A stretch of 36,416 bases of DNA from IMG/VR virus record IMGVR_UViG_2648501873_000005. One strand, given 5' to 3'. This stretch comes from a virus. Taxonomy: Duplodnaviria; Heunggongvirae; Uroviricota; Caudoviricetes. The position numbers and the translations under genes are program-made. The notes beneath the pieces are model-generated. The model saw only the letters and a program-made list of their open reading frames with translations. It was not told the DNA's origin and did not search any database. Of the stretch, positions 2,496-30,085 are shown piece by piece; the first letter of the stretch is position 1; each line of letters opens with the position of its first letter.

Positions 2496-2571
2496 GGCCC
2501 TTTAGCTCAGTGGTGAGAGCGAGCGACTCATAATCGCCAGGTCGCTGGTTCAAATCCAGCAAGGGCCACCA
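2496..2571 (+). tRNA. ileZ: tRNA with anticodon CAT, Ile2 (lysidine) type
   Basis: Hand-folded cloverleaf: acceptor GGCCCTT/AAGGGCC, D-stem GCTC/GAGC, anticodon loop CTCATAA, T-loop GGTTCAAATCC, 3' CCA. Closely resembles E. coli tRNA-Ile2 (ileX) as recalled. Confidence 0.85.
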
Positions 2572-2904: not shown

Positions 2905-3108
2905 TTGATGATTGTCTGGCTGCCGGAGAATTTGTTAAAAATTACATCGCATGGTGAATCCCCCTCAGCGGCGGGGCATCTGGCAAAGTGTATGATCCAG
3001 AGAACATGCAAATTCAGTAGACAGGCTGAATTTACCGGGAGGCCCCTGGCACCATGCGACAGACAGAAATTAGGCTATACTTCAGCCCCTCTCCGGAGGG
3101 GCTTTTCT
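2905..3108 (+). repeat. Copy 1 of a diverged direct repeat of about 200 bp, ending in a terminator-like hairpin
   Basis: Blocks shared with copy 2: TTGTCTGGC..TTTGTTAAAAA..TCGCATGGTGAATCCCCCT, ACCGGGAGGC.C..GGCACCATGC, and the identical hairpin GCCCCTCTCCGGAGGGGC followed by a T-run. Confidence 0.6.
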
Positions 3109-3371
3109 GTGCAGGATGTGTCACAGTTTCCTGAATTCTGAGTACTGTCCTGTTACTCAGGGTGCTATATTTTCTGACGTGATGAAAGTCTGCCGGAAGG
3201 CGGAACGTATCGGAAATGACCCAGTAGAGAAAACGTTGACTCAGATACCGATGCTGAGTTACCGGGAAACCGGCATCACATGACCGCTATCCTTCCAGGC
3301 TCGCTCCGGCGGGCCTTTTTACTGCAGAAAACAGTTTTCCCGTAAAATGCCACGTTGCTCATAATTCAGGC

Positions 3372-3570
3372 TGGCGATTATTGTCTGGCCGGCGGGAAGT
3401 TTGTTAAAAAATTTCGCATGGTGAATCCCCCTGTGCGGAGGGGTAATCAGCGAGTAGGTATATGGGATAATCGCGGATTCAGGTGCTGGTACTGAATTCA
3501 CCGGGAGGCACCCGGCACCATGCAATGGCACATAGCGCCACTCTCCAGCCCCTCTCCGGAGGGGCTGTTT
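3372..3570 (+). repeat. Copy 2 of the same diverged direct repeat
   Basis: Same conserved blocks and the identical GCCCCTCTCCGGAGGGGC hairpin at 3548-3565. Confidence 0.6.
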
Positions 3571-3601
3571 ATATTGATTTTGTCAGATGTGAGTAAACTG
3601 C

Positions 3602-24947: not shown

Positions 24948-25691
24948 ATGACACAGACTGAATCAGCGATTCTGGCGCATGCCCGGCGGTGTGCGCCTGC
25001 GGAGTCGTGCGGCTTCGTGATAAGCACGCCGGAGGGGGAGTGGTATATCCCTTGTGTGAATATTTCTGCAGAGCCGGAGGCGTATTTTCGTATCGCACCG
25101 GAAGACTGGCTGCGGGCAGAGATGCAGGGGGAGATTGTGGCACTGGTCCACAGTCATCCCGGTGGGCTGCCCTGGCTGAGCGAGGCTGACCGGCGGCTGC
25201 AGATAAAAAGCGCACTGCCCTGGTGGCTGGTCTGCCGGGGTGACATTCACAAATTCCGCTGTGTGCCACATCTGACAGGACGGCGCTTTGAGCATGGGGT
25301 GACGGACTGTTACACACTGTTCCGGGATGCTTATCATCTGGCGGGGACTGAAATGCCGGATTTTCATCGCGAGGATGACTGGTGGCGCAACGGTCAGAAC
25401 CTTTACCTGGACAATATGGCGGTCACCGGCTTTTACCGGGTGCCCCTGTCCTCTGCACAGGCGGGCGATATTCTGCTGTGCTGCTTTGGTGCTTCGGTAC
25501 CGAACCATGCCGCCATTTACTGCGGCAACGGTGAGCTGCTTCACCATCTGCCTGAACAACTGAGTAAACGGGAGAGGTATTCCGAAAAATGGCAACGACG
25601 AACGCATTCTGTCTGGCGTCACCGCCACTGGCACGCATCTGCCTTCACGGGGATTTACAACGATTTGGCCGCCGCCTCAGCCTGTATGTGA
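24948..25691 (+). CDS. K: Tail assembly protein K (MPN/JAB plus NlpC/P60 domains)
   Basis: MTQTESAILAHARRCAPAESCGFV.. matches the lambda K N-terminus as recalled. The track ORF begins earlier (24687) but the first ATG with homology is 24948. Confidence 0.85.
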   Translation: MTQTESAILAHARRCAPAESCGFVISTPEGEWYIPCVNISAEPEAYFRIAPEDWLRAEMQGEIVALVHSHPGGLPWLSEADRRLQIKSALPWWLVCRGDIHKFRCVPHLTGRRFEHGVTDCYTLFRDAYHLAGTEMPDFHREDDWWRNGQNLYLDNMAVTGFYRVPLSSAQAGDILLCCFGASVPNHAAIYCGNGELLHHLPEQLSKRERYSEKWQRRTHSVWRHRHWHASAFTGIYNDLAAASACM

Positions 25692-26269
25692 ACACGGCAG
25701 CGGAAGCCATCCGGGCGCTGTCGTTACAGGTGCCGGGCTTTCGCCGTCAGATGAACGAAGGCTGGTACCAGATACGTATTGCCGGTTATGACACGGCACC
25801 GGAGGCGGTGTACGCCCGTCTTCACGAACAGCTGGGTGAGGGAACGGTCATCCATATTGTGCCGCGACTGGCCGGGGCCGGAAAGGGGGGACTGCAGATT
25901 GTGCTGGGGGCGGCAGCCATCGTGGGCTCTTTCTTCACTGCCGGGGCATCAATGGCGTTATGGGGTTCAGCCCTGGCAGCCGGTGGTTTTTCTGCCACCA
26001 CGATGCTGTTTTCACTTGGAGCCAGCATGATTCTGGGCGGTGTGGCCCAGATGCTGGCCCCGAAGGCAAAAACACCGGATTACCGCGCAACGGATAACGG
26101 CAGACAGAACACGTACTTTTCCTCACTGGATAACATGATTGCCCAGGGGAACCCGATGCCGGTGCCTTACGGGGAAATGCTGGTTGGCTCCCGCCGTATA
26201 TCCCAGGACATCAGCACCCGTGATGAAGGCGGGGGCGGAACGGTCGTGGTTATCGGGCGACAGGGATAA
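25589..26269 (+). CDS. I: Tail assembly protein I
   Basis: 226 aa; ARICLHGDLQRFGRR..GWYQIRIAG..NTYFSSLDNMIAQGN matches lambda I as recalled. Overlaps the 3' end of K, as in lambda. Confidence 0.85.
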   Translation: MATTNAFCLASPPLARICLHGDLQRFGRRLSLYVNTAAEAIRALSLQVPGFRRQMNEGWYQIRIAGYDTAPEAVYARLHEQLGEGTVIHIVPRLAGAGKGGLQIVLGAAAIVGSFFTAGASMALWGSALAAGGFSATTMLFSLGASMILGGVAQMLAPKAKTPDYRATDNGRQNTYFSSLDNMIAQGNPMPVPYGEMLVGSRRISQDISTRDEGGGGTVVVIGRQG

Positions 26270-26273
26270 AACA

Positions 26274-26372
26274 TAAAAAAATCCCGCAGTGATCGCGGAG
26301 CTGCGGGGACAGACAAATGAAGATCAATGTTAAGGAGTTGTTTTTGTTACTCGGGCAAAAAAACACTAACGC
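26274..26372 (-). ncRNA. Candidate small RNA on the minus strand in the I-J gap
   Basis: Minus-strand promoter: -35 TTCACA (plus 26401-26406), 16-bp spacer, perfect -10 TATAAT (plus 26379-26384). About 100 nt downstream is an intrinsic terminator (hairpin at plus 26283-26307 followed by a U-run on the minus strand). No convincing ORF in this unit. Confidence 0.35.
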
Positions 26373-26611
26373 AGCGAAATTATAAGCGCCACAGTCAGTG
26401 TGTGAAAATGTGAAGATATTCAGAATTTTTATGCCATTACCGGTTTTAACCAACAGGATTATCGGTGGGCATGAAAGAAAACCCCGGTATCTGCTGATAC
26501 CGGGGTTTCTCTTTAGCATGGCAGAAATGTGTTTCATGCTTTTCGGGCGAAGGATATCCGACTTCTGTACGGAATGGCAAGTGGCGGTTAATTTATTCAG
26601 GGGAAGGCTGT

Positions 26612-29600
26612 ATGGGAAAAGGTGGCGGTAAGGCACACACGCCTCGTGAGGCGAAGGATAATCTCAAATCCACGCAGATGATGAGCGTGATTGATGCGAT
26701 TGGTGAGGGACCGATAGAAGGTCCGGTGAAGGGACTGCAGAGTATTCTGGTGAACAAAACCCCACTGACGGACACGGACGGCAATCCCGTGATACACGGT
26801 GTGACGGCGGTCTGGCGCGCCGGGGAGCAGGAGCAGACACCACCGGAAGGCTTTGAGTCCTCCGGAGCTGAAACCGGACTGGGCGTGGAAGTGACGAAGG
26901 CAAAACCGGTGACGCGCACCATTACGTCCGCGAACATTGACCGCCTGCGGGTTACCTTCGGGGTGCAGTCACTGGTGGAGACCACCTCAAAGGGTGACCG
27001 TAACCCGGCATCCGTCCGCCTGCTGATTCAGTTACAGCGTAACGGTAACTGGGTGACAGAAAAGGACGTCACCATTAACGGCAAGACCACCTCACAGTTC
27101 CTGGCCTCGGTGATTCTGGATAATCTGCCTCCCCGGCCCTTTAACATCCGGATGGTCAGGGAGACGGCGGACAGCACCACGGACCAGCTGCAGAATAAGA
27201 CGCTGTGGTCGTCATACACCGAAATCATCGATGTGAAACAGTGCTACCCGAACACGGCCATTGTGGGGCTGCAGGTGGATGCGGAGCAGTTCGGCGGCCA
27301 GCAGATGACGGTGAACTACCATATCCGCGGTCGCATCATCCAGGTGCCGTCAAACTATGACCCGGAAAAACGCACGTATAGTGGTATCTGGGACGGCAGT
27401 CTGAAACCGGCATACAGCAACAACCCGGCCTGGTGTCTGTGGGACATGCTGACTCACCCGCGCTACGGCATGGGAAAACGTCTGGGGGCGGCGGATGTGG
27501 ACAAGTGGGCGCTGTATGCCATCGGGCAGTACTGCGACCAGACGGTCCCGGATGGTTTCGGGGGGACCGAGCCGCGGATGACCTTTAATGCGTACCTGGC
27601 ACAACAGCGTAAGGCGTGGGACGTTCTCAGTGATTTCTGCTCTGCGATGCGCTGTATGCCGGTATGGAACGGTCAGACGCTGACGTTCGTTCAGGACCGC
27701 CCGTCGGATGTGGTGTGGCCGTACACCAACAGCGATGTGGTGGTGGATGATAACGGCGTGGGATTCCGCTACAGCTTCAGTGCCCTGAAGGACCGGCACA
27801 CGGCGGTGGAGGTGAATTACACCGACCCGCAGAACGGCTGGCAGACCTCCACGGAACTGGTGGAAGACCCGGAAGCCATACTGCGCTACGGACGCAACCT
27901 GCTGAAGATGGACGCGTTCGGCTGTACCAGCCGCGGTCAGGCCCACCGTGCCGGACTGTGGGTGATAAAGACCGAACTGCTGGAAACGCAGACGGTGGAT
28001 TTCACGCTCGGGTCTCAGGGGCTGCGGCACACACCCGGTGACATTATTGAAATCTGTGATAATGACTATGCCGGGACCCTGACCGGCGGACGTGTCCTGT
28101 CCATTGATGCTGCCACCCGCACCCTGACGCTGGACCGTGAGGTTACCCTGCCGGAGACAGGTACATCGGCGGTGAACCTGATTAACGGCAGCGGTAAGCC
28201 GGTGAGTGTGGACATCACCGCACACCCCGCGCCGGACCGGATACAGGTCAGTACCCTGCCTGATGGTGTGGAGACATACGGGGTGTGGGGACTCTCCCTG
28301 CCGTCACTGCGCCGTCGCCTGTTCCGCTGTGTCTCCATCCGGGAAAACACGGACGGCACCTTTGCCATCACGGCGGTGCAGCACGTACCGGAAAAAGAAG
28401 CCATCGTGGATAACGGTGCCCGCTTTGAGCCGCAGTCAGGTTCCCTGAACAGCGTCATCCCACCGGCAGTGCAGCACCTGACGGTGGAGGTGAGCGCAGC
28501 TGACGGCCAGTATCTGGCGCAGGCGAAATGGGACACGCCGCGGGTGGTGAAGGGTGTGCGCTTCAGTCTGCGCCTGACCAGTGGTAAGGGAACGGATGCC
28601 AGACTGGTGACCACCGCCATCACCGCAGACACGGAGCACCGTTTCAGCGGCCTGCCGCTCGGGGAATACACCCTGACGGTGCGGGCGATAAACAGCTATG
28701 GCCAGCAGGGTGAACCTGCCACCACCACCTTCCGGATTACCGCACCGGCAGCACCGTCGCGGATTGAGCTGACGCCGGGCTATTTTCAGATAACCGCAAC
28801 GCCACATCTTGCCGTTTATGACCCGACGGTACAGTTTGAGTTCTGGTTCTCGGAAAAGCGGATTGCGGATATCAGGCAGGTTGAAACCGCAGCCCGCTAT
28901 CTTGGCTCGGCGCTGTACTGGATAGCTGCCAGTATCAATATCAAACCGGGCCATGATTATTATTTTTATATCCGCAGTGTGAATACTGTTGGCAAATCGG
29001 CATTCGTGGAGGCTGTCGGTCGGGCGAGCGATGATGCGGAAGGTTACCTGGATTTTTTCAAAGGAGAAATCGGGAAAACACATCTGGCCCAGGAGCTGTG
29101 GACGCAGATTGATAACGGTCAGCTTGCGCCGGACCTGGCTGAAATCAGGACGTCCATTACGAATGTCAGCAATGAAATCACGCAGACCGTCAATAAAAAA
29201 CTGGAAAATCAGAGTGCGGCAATCCAGCAGATACAGAAAGTTCAGGTTGATACAAATAATAACCTGAACAGCATGTGGGCCGTGAAACTGCAGCAGATGC
29301 AGGACGGACGCCTTTATATTGCGGGTATCGGTGCCGGTATTGAGAATACGCCAGCAGGAATGCAGAGTCAGGTGCTGCTGGCGGCAGACAGGATTGCGAT
29401 GATTAATCCTGCGAATGGCAACACAAAGCCGATGTTTGTTGGTCAGGGCGATCAGATATTTATGAATGAAGTGTTCCTGAAATATCTGACGGCTCCCACC
29501 ATTACCAGCGGCGGTAATCCTCCGGCATTTTCCCTGACACCGGACGGGCGGCTGACGGCGAAAAATGCCGATATCAGCGGTAACGTGAATGCGAACTCCG

Positions 29601-30085
29601 GGACGCTCAACAACGTCACGATTAACGAGAACTGTCGGGTTCTGGGAAAATTGTCCGCGAACCAGATTGAAGGCGATCTCGTTAAAACAGTGGGCAAAGC
29701 TTTCCCCCGGGACTCCCGTGCACCGGAGCGGTGGCCATCAGGAACCATTACCGTCAGGGTTTATGACGATCAGCCGTTTGACCGGCAGATTGTTATTCCG
29801 GCGGTGGCATTCAGCGGCGCTAAACATGAGAAAGAGCATACTGATATTTACTCCTCATGCCGTCTGATAGTGCGGAAAAACGGTGCTGAAATTTATAACC
29901 GTACCGCGCTGGATAATACGCTGATTTACAGTGGTGTTATTGATATGCCTGCCGGTCACGGTCACATGACACTGGAGTTTTCGGTGTCAGCATGGCTGGT
30001 AAATAACTGGTATCCCACAGCAAGTATCAGCGATTTGCTGGTTGTGGTGATGAAGAAAGCCACTGCAGGCATCACGATTAGCTGA
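26612..30085 (+). CDS. J: Central tail fibre / host specificity protein J
   Basis: 1157 aa; N-terminus [22 protein letters not shown] and overall architecture match lambda J as recalled. Confidence 0.9.

What the first reader, a model, noticed from the sequence alone, without database searches (positions are those of the whole stretch)
26274..26410. Promoter-to-terminator minus-strand unit without an ORF in the I-J intergenic gap (candidate sRNA)
The 340-bp gap between tail genes I and J contains, on the minus strand, a near-consensus sigma70 promoter (TTCACA, 16-bp spacer, TATAAT) and about 100 nt downstream a strong intrinsic terminator, with no credible ORF. The predicted RNA contains a CA-rich stretch (AACAAAAACAAC). 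EHEC prophages are known to encode anti-sRNAs (AsxR, AgvB) that sponge core sRNAs; this could be a member of that class or a new one. I cannot verify identity to any named sRNA from memory.
Basis: partly seen in the sequence, partly recalled or inferred. Interest (0 to 1): 0.6.

Follow-up and report, generated by a model that had tools for sequence, protein, structure and literature searches.

The report
Known prophage small RNA PasB
The promoter-to-terminator unit between tail genes I and J is real, but it is already known: it is a one-base variant of PasB, a validated Hfq-dependent small RNA of E. coli prophages, so the find is correct but ordinary.

Summary
On the minus strand of the 342-bp I-J gap there is a TTCACA-16-TATAAT promoter (26406-26379), a 7-bp GC stem with a U7 tail (26307-26275), and no ORF contained in the transcript.

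The RNA is already described. Window 26357..26275 matches the 83-nt sRNA PasB of EPEC E2348/69 at 82 of 83 positions. PasB was validated by northern blot, is Hfq-dependent and has 37 RIL-seq interactions. The published PasB probe matches window 26280-26302 exactly. The single difference (C27A, window 26331) is the published PasB/PasB-2 difference.

EcOnc22/23/24 of EHEC Sakai lie at the same I-J position and are about 83% identical. They crosslink to Hfq; EcOnc22 gave a ~85-nt northern band and was destabilised in Δhfq.

It is not AgvB or AsxR: the locus differs, there is no sequence or Rfam match, and pairing to GcvB is at chance level. The CA-rich stretch fits an (ARN)4 Hfq-binding motif better.

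Predicted pairing of the seven RIL-seq partners I tested maps to nt 34-66 of the predicted transcript. This includes a 16-bp duplex over the napF Shine-Dalgarno sequence and start codon.

My own additions are the PasB/EcOnc22 family link, a conserved CRP-like palindrome upstream of the promoter, and sodC or tandem-unit variants of the locus. Interest is low.

The parts
26275..26357 (-). PasB-2 sRNA as annotated in the literature (83 nt). It is identical to E2348/69 PasB except C27A.
   Evidence: 82/83 match to NC_011601.1 1466343..1466261. PasB coordinates and northern probe are from Table S6 of PMC8550237.
26275..26372 (-). Predicted primary transcript (98 nt), if transcription starts 7 nt after the -10 hexamer. 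The extra 15 nt are GCGUUAGUGUUUUUU.
   Evidence: Inferred from the position of the -10 hexamer. The GCGUUA 5' block is nearly invariant across 22 variants. No start-site mapping data were available.
26379..26384 (-). -10 hexamer TATAAT
   Evidence: The aligned position reads TATAAT, AATAAT, TATCAT, GATAAT or CATAAT in nearly all of 38 unique promoter variants.
26401..26406 (-). -35 hexamer TTCACA (16-bp spacer). This position is not conserved in other family variants.
   Evidence: Sp15/EcOnc22 has TTCCGG here and others have TTCTGT.
26409..26424 (.). CRP-like palindrome TGTGA-AGATAT-TCAGA, inside a conserved upstream block (26406-26428). Its centre is at about -44.5 from the inferred start site.
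   Evidence: Both half-sites are invariant in 38 unique promoter variants, the first three central positions and the adjacent -35/spacer region vary, and spacing to the -10 is fixed apart from single-base indels in three variants. A single such site in the window is no more than chance (1 found, 1.17 expected). Function is untested.
26337..26348 (-). AACAAAAACAAC, which reads as four A-R-N triplets. Candidate binding site for the distal face of Hfq.
   Evidence: Read directly from the sequence. An (ARN)3-4 pattern is kept in diverged variants although the letters differ. ARN motifs as Hfq sites: Tree 2014.
26307..26339 (-). Single-stranded pairing region (nt 34-66 of the 98-nt numbering): AACUCCUUAACAUUGAUCUUCAUUUGUCUGUCC. 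It contains the family-invariant AAUCUUC-type block (GAUCUUC in the window copy) and the PasB-specific UUUGUCUGUC.
   Evidence: The best predicted duplexes of all 7 tested RIL-seq partners of PasB fall here. No conserved structure is predicted outside the terminator.
26331..26331 (-). The single difference from E2348/69 PasB (RNA position 27: A here, C in PasB). It lies inside the predicted napF/fabR/map pairing stretch.
   Evidence: The napF duplex is -26.2 kcal/mol for PasB and -19.8 for the window variant.
26275..26307 (-). Intrinsic terminator: 7-bp stem CCCGCAG/CUGCGGG, 11-nt loop, U7 tail. It starts 6 nt from the stop codon of I.
25589..26269 (+). Tail assembly gene I (left flank)
   Evidence: ORF. 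Homologues are annotated as tail assembly protein.
26612..30085 (+). Tail tip / host specificity gene J (right flank)
   Evidence: ORF. Homologues are annotated as gpJ.

Best explanation
The unit is the gene for PasB, in the variant published as PasB-2. PasB is an Hfq-dependent, trans-acting base-pairing sRNA carried as a protein-less 'moron' between tail genes I and J of lambdoid prophages, and it is transcribed against the late operon.

Shown elsewhere for the same sequence or its homologues:
- The RNA is made in lysogens (northern blot).
- It is lost or reduced without Hfq.
- It crosslinks to Hfq and to RNase E.
- It forms chimeras with many RNAs on Hfq.

Inferred here:
- A sigma70 -10 element drives a transcript of about 98 nt. 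This is found as about 83 nt, either after 5' trimming or because coverage-based end calls are imprecise.
- Hfq binds the U-tailed terminator and the (ARN)4 stretch.
- The unstructured segment between them (nt 34-66) pairs with targets.
- The best single case is napF, the first gene of the periplasmic nitrate reductase operon. PasB forms a 16-bp duplex covering the napF Shine-Dalgarno sequence and GTG start, which would block translation. The window variant keeps a weaker duplex because its one SNP lies in that stretch.
- The most abundant partner is an RNA from the region upstream of the holin gene of other resident prophages, paired through CUGUCUGUC:GACAGACAG.
For: Identity:
- 82/83 match to PasB; the published northern probe AATCCCGCAGTGATCGCGGAGCT is exact at window 26280-26302.
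- The whole promoter-to-terminator unit is otherwise identical to the E2348/69 locus, which also sits between the tail assembly gene and gpJ.
- The SNP at position 27 is the PasB/PasB-2 difference described in bioRxiv 10.64898/2026.05.13.724894.

Expression and Hfq dependence:
- Northern blot and 'Hfq-dependent stability'.
- log2 fold change -6.8 and -2.4 in the wild-type/Δhfq comparison.
- 37 interactions in the interaction summary table.

EHEC homologues:
- CLASH reads assigned to EcOnc22/23/24 read GCCTGAAAAATAACTCCATAACGTTAATCTTCA. This is the I-J gap sequence of Sakai Sp15/14/11 on the strand opposite the tail genes.
- EcOnc22 gave a ~85-nt northern band and was destabilised in Δhfq.

Pairing region:
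- RIL-seq partners, with chimera counts: holin-upstream IGR 774, E2348C_2648 71, napF 5'UTR 70, map 67, hflX 55, fabR 50.
- The best predicted duplexes of all seven tested partners lie in nt 34-66.
- The napF duplex spans -11 to +6 of the GTG start.
Against: - No data come from the strain that holds this window.
- The 5' end is unresolved (26372 inferred, 26357 published).
- Target predictions are my own duplex calculations on partners chosen because RIL-seq listed them. No shuffled control was run for them and no reporter test exists.
- Several partner sites are inside coding regions, where the regulatory outcome is unclear.
- RNase E CLASH recovered only a handful of hybrids for the EHEC homologues (yjbJ, ECs5349, rRNA).
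- A scan of the window itself found no target site better than shuffled seeds.
- The published papers state that the function of PasB has not been elucidated.
Confidence: 0.9

Rival explanations
1. It is an anti-sRNA sponge of the AgvB/AsxR class. The CA-rich stretch would mimic GcvB targets and titrate GcvB or another core sRNA.
For: - The RNA has a CA-rich single-stranded stretch and binds Hfq, as AgvB does.
- Its most abundant RIL-seq partner is another non-coding intergenic RNA rather than an mRNA coding region.
- One supplementary table of PMC5286369 labels the EcOnc22 coordinates 'asxR2'.
Against: - The locus differs: AgvB and AsxR sit at the PR' moron site.
- There is no Rfam match and BLAST finds no AgvB match in the window; AsxR itself was not compared by BLAST.
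- CACAACA is absent.
- The CA stretch pairs with GcvB R1 at -9.2 kcal/mol, against -20.0 for AgvB.
- CA-richness is not conserved across variants.
- No gcvB row appeared among the PasB rows I read. I did not see the complete sRNA-sRNA part of the table.
Confidence: 0.05
2. Its main role is in cis. It would act as an antisense RNA to the late polycistronic mRNA at the I-J junction, or as a convergent transcription block, tuning J (tail tip) expression of its own or a related superinfecting phage during lytic growth.
For: - It is perfectly complementary to the late transcript across the gap (by position; duplex -97.6 kcal/mol).
- The locus is fixed at the I-J junction in every copy seen, although the RNA sequence varies.
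- A strong terminator-like hairpin also lies between it and J.
Against: - The RNA ends about 240-340 nt upstream of the J ribosome-binding site, so it cannot mask it.
- It is expressed in uninduced lysogens, where the late operon is silent, and it contacts many unlinked RNAs on Hfq.
- Phages with the sodC insertion lack its promoter yet keep an intact-looking tail gene cluster.
Confidence: 0.15
3. It is a non-functional relic. The terminator and 3'UTR would be left from a sodC-type moron, with a chance promoter upstream.
For: In Sakai Sp10 the same terminator and about 80 nt of the RNA body lie downstream of a Cu/Zn superoxide dismutase gene inserted at this site.
Against: - The promoter block and -10 are kept in 38 distinct promoter variants.
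- The unit is in 1813 genomes, with up to 11 copies each.
- The RNA is abundant, Hfq-stabilised and interactive.
- In the sodC form the gene has its own terminator, and it is the sRNA promoter that is missing. This fits an insertion into a pre-existing sRNA gene.
Confidence: 0.02

Closest known systems
PasB / PasB-2 (Pearl Mizrahi et al. 2021, Sci Adv, PMC8550237; Zhu, Shabalina & Storz 2026, bioRxiv 10.64898/2026.05.13.724894)
   Same: The sequence matches at 82/83 positions and the northern probe matches exactly. The position is the same (between tail assembly gene I and gpJ, opposite strand), as are the promoter and terminator. The one difference is at position 27, which is the published PasB versus PasB-2 difference.
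   Different: The J-proximal half of the gap differs: 342 bp here with an extra strong hairpin, 240 bp in E2348/69. The SNP lies in the predicted napF/fabR/map pairing stretch.
EcOnc22/EcOnc23/EcOnc24 of EHEC O157:H7 Sakai prophages Sp15/Sp14/Sp11 (Tree et al. 2014, PMC4104026; Waters et al. 2016, PMC5286369)
   Same: The I-J position, strand, upstream block, -10, 5' GCGUUA-type start, U-run, ARN stretch, AAUCUUC block and terminator are shared. EcOnc22/23/24 are Hfq-crosslinked, and EcOnc22 gave a ~85-nt northern band.
   Different: They are only about 83% identical over 71 nt. The window has a 6-nt insertion, and the segments around and just upstream of the terminator differ (CCAUAACGUUA...CAUCGUUCUCU versus CCUUAACAUUG...CAUUUGUCUGU), so targets probably differ.
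AgvB / AsxR anti-sRNAs (Rfam RF02702, RF02703)
   Same: They are also prophage-encoded, Hfq-bound, short, and have an ARN-type motif and an intrinsic terminator.
   Different: They lie at a different locus (PR' moron site) and are 51-60 nt long. No sequence or covariance-model similarity was found, and there is no GcvB- or FnrS-type mimic sequence.
Phage 'morons' (Juhala et al. 2000, as cited), e.g. the sodC moron at the same site in Sakai Sp10
   Same: It is an autonomous promoter-plus-terminator unit inserted between two late genes, in the opposite orientation, and expressed from the prophage. It shares its terminator and 3' region with the sodC moron.
   Different: The cargo is an RNA, not a protein.

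Membership tests
PasB sRNA | Sequence of the 83-nt RNA of E2348/69 (NC_011601.1 1466343..1466261) | tested here: met
   82/83 identical; the one mismatch is at position 27
PasB sRNA | Published northern probe AATCCCGCAGTGATCGCGGAGCT hybridises | tested here: met
   Exact match at window 26280-26302, complementary to the minus-strand RNA
PasB sRNA | Embedded in the phage structural operon, between the tail assembly gene and J, on the opposite strand | tested here: met
PasB sRNA | Expressed, and stabilised by Hfq | not testable with these tools
   Shown for E2348/69 and for the Sakai homologue EcOnc22. Not shown for the strain of this window.
EcOnc22/23/24 | RNA from the I-J gap, antisense to the tail genes, with the sequence read in CLASH hybrids | tested here: met
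   The locus is the same. The CLASH read sequence maps to L006 6853-6885. The window RNA is 83% identical over 71 nt, so it is the same family but a different variant.
AgvB/AsxR anti-sRNAs | Match to Rfam RF02702 or RF02703, or to the conserved ~42-nt 3' region | tested here: not met
   No Rfam hit at the gathering threshold or at E<=10. AgvB1 gave no BLAST hit in the window; AsxR was not compared by BLAST.
AgvB/AsxR anti-sRNAs | Located at the PR' moron site, convergent with a second sRNA | tested here: not met
   It lies between I and J, about 23 kb downstream of the tRNA/STnc100 (Q-PR') region of the window
AgvB/AsxR anti-sRNAs | 5' variable region mimics the target of a core sRNA (CACAACA for GcvB R1) | tested here: not met
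   No CACAACA. The CA stretch pairs with R1 at -9.2 kcal/mol against -20.0 for AgvB; the whole-RNA best is within the shuffle range
Hfq-dependent base-pairing sRNA (general class) | Intrinsic terminator with a U-tail, a single-stranded seed, and an Hfq-binding motif (ARN or U-rich) | tested here: met
   Terminator plus U7, an (ARN)4 stretch, and an unstructured body in the consensus fold
cAMP-CRP-activated promoter | TGTGA-N6-TCACA site centred at -41.5 (class II) or at -61.5/-71.5 (class I) | tested here: inconclusive
   The site matches 9 of 10 half-site bases and is conserved. Its centre is about -44.5 from the inferred start site (about -59.5 from the published 5' end), and neither is canonical. 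PasB is higher in overnight LB than in exponential DMEM, which is compatible but not specific.

The most novel reading that the evidence does not exclude
The I-J gap of lambdoid prophages would hold one modular, recombining family of RNA morons, in which PasB, PasB-2, EcOnc22-24 and further variants are alleles. Some phages carry them as tandem pairs, and in others the promoter is displaced by sodC.

The alleles share an activator-dependent promoter module (a CRP-like palindrome) and a terminator, while the pairing segment is swapped. Different prophages would therefore reprogramme different host genes. For PasB this would be nitrate respiration through the napF translation start, together with the RNA upstream of the holin gene of co-resident prophages, which would amount to cross-talk between prophages over lysis.
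Probability: 0.3. Interest if true: 0.5.

Novelty: already known. Interest (0 to 1): 0.25.

Why it matters
The element is not annotated in any of the 1813 RefSeq genomes that carry it and has no Rfam family.

Biologically, PasB is widespread and abundant, but its function is still open. Three points assembled here give concrete experiments rather than a new discovery:
- It is the same locus family as EcOnc22-24.
- It has a candidate napF target site, and the PasB/PasB-2 SNP falls within it.
- It has a conserved palindrome upstream of the promoter.

Tried and rejected
1. Rfam, at the gathering threshold and at E<=10. Nothing was found at the locus, only chance-level hits driven by the terminator.

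2. AgvB/AsxR identity. Rejected on locus and on lack of any Rfam or AgvB BLAST match.

3. GcvB sponge. Pairing is no better than shuffles. Full-length duplexfold gave meaningless long duplexes, so I replaced it with windowed scans.

4. EcOnc54 as the Sakai counterpart. It lies in the L-K moron, not in the I-J gap.

5. HnrS (EcOnc10/11/12). This is a different locus, downstream of the Rz (endopeptidase) gene, and only a 35-nt flank fragment matches in the window.

6. Mapping Tree 2014 coordinates onto the current Sakai record. This needed a shift of about +128 to +147 nt, estimated from AgvB1 and the mirrored EcOnc10/11 copies. The CLASH read sequences then settled it directly, at +135.

7. A plus-strand small ORF, MKINVKELF... 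(26317-26385). Rejected because ATG is ACG in many variants and the indels are not in multiples of three.

8. Conserved secondary structure. Only the terminator stem is predicted, and it could not vary because my search pattern fixed it. There is no covariation evidence.

9. A target inside the same prophage. The best site is -17.0 kcal/mol, while 12 shuffled seeds reach -18 to -26. The GACAGACAG at window 3058 is therefore not claimed as a target.

10. Relatives outside Escherichia. The exact-pattern scan of one genome per species found only E. albertii plus unrelated chance matches and two hits in contigs that look like E. coli contamination.

11. Start-site and Term-seq tables for Sakai. 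No supplementary files are held.

12. Phrase searches for 'gcvB pasB' in the RIL-seq table. These do not work across tab characters.

Full report
**Observation.** The window is a lambdoid prophage. Tail gene I ends at 26269 and J starts at 26612. The homologous genes are annotated as tail assembly protein and gpJ in many RefSeq genomes. On the minus strand of the 342-bp gap, the scan finds TTCACA-16-TATAAT at 26406..26379, matching 11 of 12 consensus positions. It also finds a terminator whose stem, CCCGCAG/CUGCGGG, is followed by seven U (26307-26275). No ORF is contained in the roughly 100-nt transcript.

**Identity.** Rfam has no family for the locus.

Table S6 of Pearl Mizrahi et al. 2021 lists PasB as follows: NC_011601.1 minus strand 1466343..1466261, 83 nt, prophage PP6, northern probe AATCCCGCAGTGATCGCGGAGCT.
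- The probe is an exact match to window 26280-26302.
- The 83-nt RNA matches window 26357..26275 at 82 of 83 positions.
- The E2348/69 locus is also the gap between the tail assembly gene and gpJ.
- The whole promoter-to-terminator unit is otherwise identical.
- The mismatch is at RNA position 27. Zhu, Shabalina and Storz (2026 preprint) give exactly this position as the difference between PasB and PasB-2.

The window therefore carries PasB-2.

**What is published about PasB.**
- It was confirmed by northern blot and depends on Hfq for stability.
- Its log2 fold change in the wild-type/Δhfq comparison is -6.8 and -2.4 in the two conditions.
- It is higher in overnight static LB than in exponential DMEM.
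- It has 37 RIL-seq interactions.
- Its function is described as not elucidated.

**Link to EHEC.** Tree et al. 2014 list EcOnc22, EcOnc23 and EcOnc24 in Sakai prophages Sp15, Sp14 and Sp11. EcOnc22 gave a ~85-nt northern band and was destabilised in Δhfq. Their coordinates refer to an older genome version, so I calibrated the shift. RNase E-CLASH reads assigned to these RNAs then settled the matter. They read GCCTGAAAAATAACTCCATAACGTTAATCTTCA, which is the I-J gap of Sp15 on the strand opposite the tail genes. These RNAs are 83% identical to the window RNA over 71 nt. A 2021 review lists their targets as unknown. Neither Pas paper I could read mentions this relationship.

**Family anatomy.** A pattern based on the terminator retrieved more than 120 viral contigs. 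Outside E. coli-like sequence, the scan of one genome per species retrieved only E. albertii plus chance or contaminant hits.

The gap comes in several length classes:
- about 226-254 bp (as in E2348/69 and Sp15);
- 335-336 bp (this window);
- 416-420 bp, which is two tandem sRNA units, each with the same upstream block;
- 840-846 bp, which holds a sodC gene with its own terminator inserted where the sRNA promoter should be, with the RNA body and terminator retained, as in Sakai Sp10;
- 907 bp (a single locus, contents not resolved);
- 1591 bp, an IS insertion.

Across 22 RNA variants and 38 unique promoter variants, the invariant or nearly invariant parts are:
- an upstream block, AAAWTTCTGA-N6-TCACATTT;
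- the -10 hexamer;
- GCGUUA at the start;
- a U-run;
- an (ARN)3-4 stretch;
- AAUCUUC;
- the terminator.

The -35 position, a short segment after the U-run, and the sequence around and just upstream of the terminator all vary. RNAalifold predicts only the terminator stem, and that stem could not vary because my search pattern fixed it. The unit is found in 1813 of 5426 complete E. coli genomes, with up to 11 copies per genome, and is never annotated.

**Mechanism.** The sequence features fit a standard Hfq sRNA. The CA-rich stretch is four A-R-N triplets. This pattern is kept in variants whose letters differ, so it reads as an Hfq distal-face site rather than a GcvB mimic. Its pairing with GcvB R1 is -9.2 kcal/mol, against -20.0 for AgvB.

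I read the PasB rows of the RIL-seq table.
- The top partner by far is an RNA from the region between pasA and the holin gene of prophage PP2 (774 chimeras, 3 of 3 libraries). Its PP5 homologue has 54.
- Next come E2348C_2648 (71), napF 5'UTR (70, 3 of 3 libraries), map (67), nlpD IGR (56), hflX (55), ler (54) and fabR (50).

I fetched seven partner regions and computed local duplexes. All seven best duplexes fall in nt 34-66 of the 98-nt numbering.
- For napF the duplex is 16 bp (15 Watson-Crick pairs and one G-U) and spans -11 to +6 of the GTG start, including the GGAAGG Shine-Dalgarno sequence. This is the classic geometry for translational repression.
- For the holin-upstream RNAs the core is CUGUCUGUC:GACAGACAG.
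- The window's C27A change lies inside the napF/fabR/map stretch and weakens the napF duplex from -26.2 to -19.8 kcal/mol.

These pairings are predictions on partners preselected by RIL-seq, without a shuffled control and without reporter tests.

**Promoter.** The upstream block contains TGTGA-AGATAT-TCAGA, a 9-of-10 match to the CRP half-sites. One such site in 36 kb is what chance gives. The argument for function is that both half-sites are invariant, the first three central positions and the neighbouring -35 region vary, and spacing to the -10 is fixed apart from single-base indels in three variants. Its centre is about -44.5 from the inferred start, which is not a canonical CRP position. 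I therefore treat CRP control as a hypothesis only.

**5' end.** The -10 predicts a start near 26372. The published end, from RNA-seq coverage, is 26357, and one RIL-seq fragment also begins there. This could be processing in the U-run or imprecision in the coverage-based call. I could not resolve it, because no start-site table is held.

**Verdict.** The sRNA reading is right, the anti-sRNA/GcvB reading is not supported, and the element is already known as PasB-2. Interest is low. The residual value lies in the PasB/EcOnc22-24 family link, the candidate napF site with the SNP inside it, and the conserved upstream palindrome.

Noticed in passing
window 26480-26507 (within the J-proximal segment 26436-26611): A strong hairpin, AACCCCGGTATC-TGCT-GATACCGGGGTT, is flanked by U-rich runs on both strands (-28.5 and -26.0 kcal/mol, z about -8). 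It looks like a terminator in both directions and lies between the PasB promoter and J. A weak minus-strand promoter-like site (TTGCCA-18-TATCCT, 26580-26551) lies upstream of it. The segment is almost invariant in 46 loci, so conservation says nothing. Short-gap phages have a different hairpin here that looks like a terminator only in the tail-gene direction.
   Followed up: partly
L004 43485-44335 (Sakai Sp10, NC_002695.2 1963484-1964334): A Cu/Zn superoxide dismutase (sodC) moron occupies the same I-J gap. It has its own terminator, and the PasB-family RNA body and terminator lie downstream of it without the sRNA promoter. sodC read-through could still yield a 3' fragment carrying the sRNA sequence.
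   Followed up: partly
L070 (gap of 419 bp), L032, L021, L090, L055: Some phages carry two tandem sRNA units in the I-J gap. Each has the conserved upstream block. The second unit has a diverged body (…AACUCCUUAAGGUGACUAUUCGUUCCUCCCG…) and a different terminator.
   Followed up: partly
window 2496-2568, 2579-2652, 2919-3112, 3388-3576: There are two tRNA genes followed by two tandem copies of the STnc100 sRNA family (138 and 132 bits). This is typical of the Q-PR' region of Stx-like lambdoid prophages. The 2026 preprint relates STnc100 to PasD.
   Followed up: no
window 3058-3066: GACAGACAG, the complement of the PasB segment CUGUCUGUC, occurs in the first STnc100 copy, in a stretch the Rfam consensus shows as unpaired. 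A scan of the whole window showed that such sites are not above the shuffled-seed background.
   Followed up: yes
window 26317-26385 (+): A 22-codon plus-strand ORF (MKINVKELFLLLGQKNTNAAKL) runs antisense to PasB. Some phage records annotate ORFs here as hypothetical proteins. The start codon is ACG in many family variants and the indels break the frame.
   Followed up: yes
PMC5286369 supplementary file 4 versus file 9: The same Sakai coordinates (2902729-2902766) are labelled 'asxR2' in one table and EcOnc22 in another. No paper in the searchable library uses the name AsxR2.
   Followed up: partly
NC_002695.2 versus coordinates in Tree 2014 and Waters 2016: Published EcOnc coordinates are offset from the current Sakai RefSeq record by about +147 nt at 1.94 Mb and about +128 to +135 nt at 2.2-2.9 Mb. 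Anyone mapping these sRNAs onto the current record will land beside them.
   Followed up: yes
L042 (gap of 1591 bp): An IS3-family insertion sequence (orfA/orfB transposase) sits in the I-J gap of one viral contig, next to the sRNA unit.
   Followed up: no
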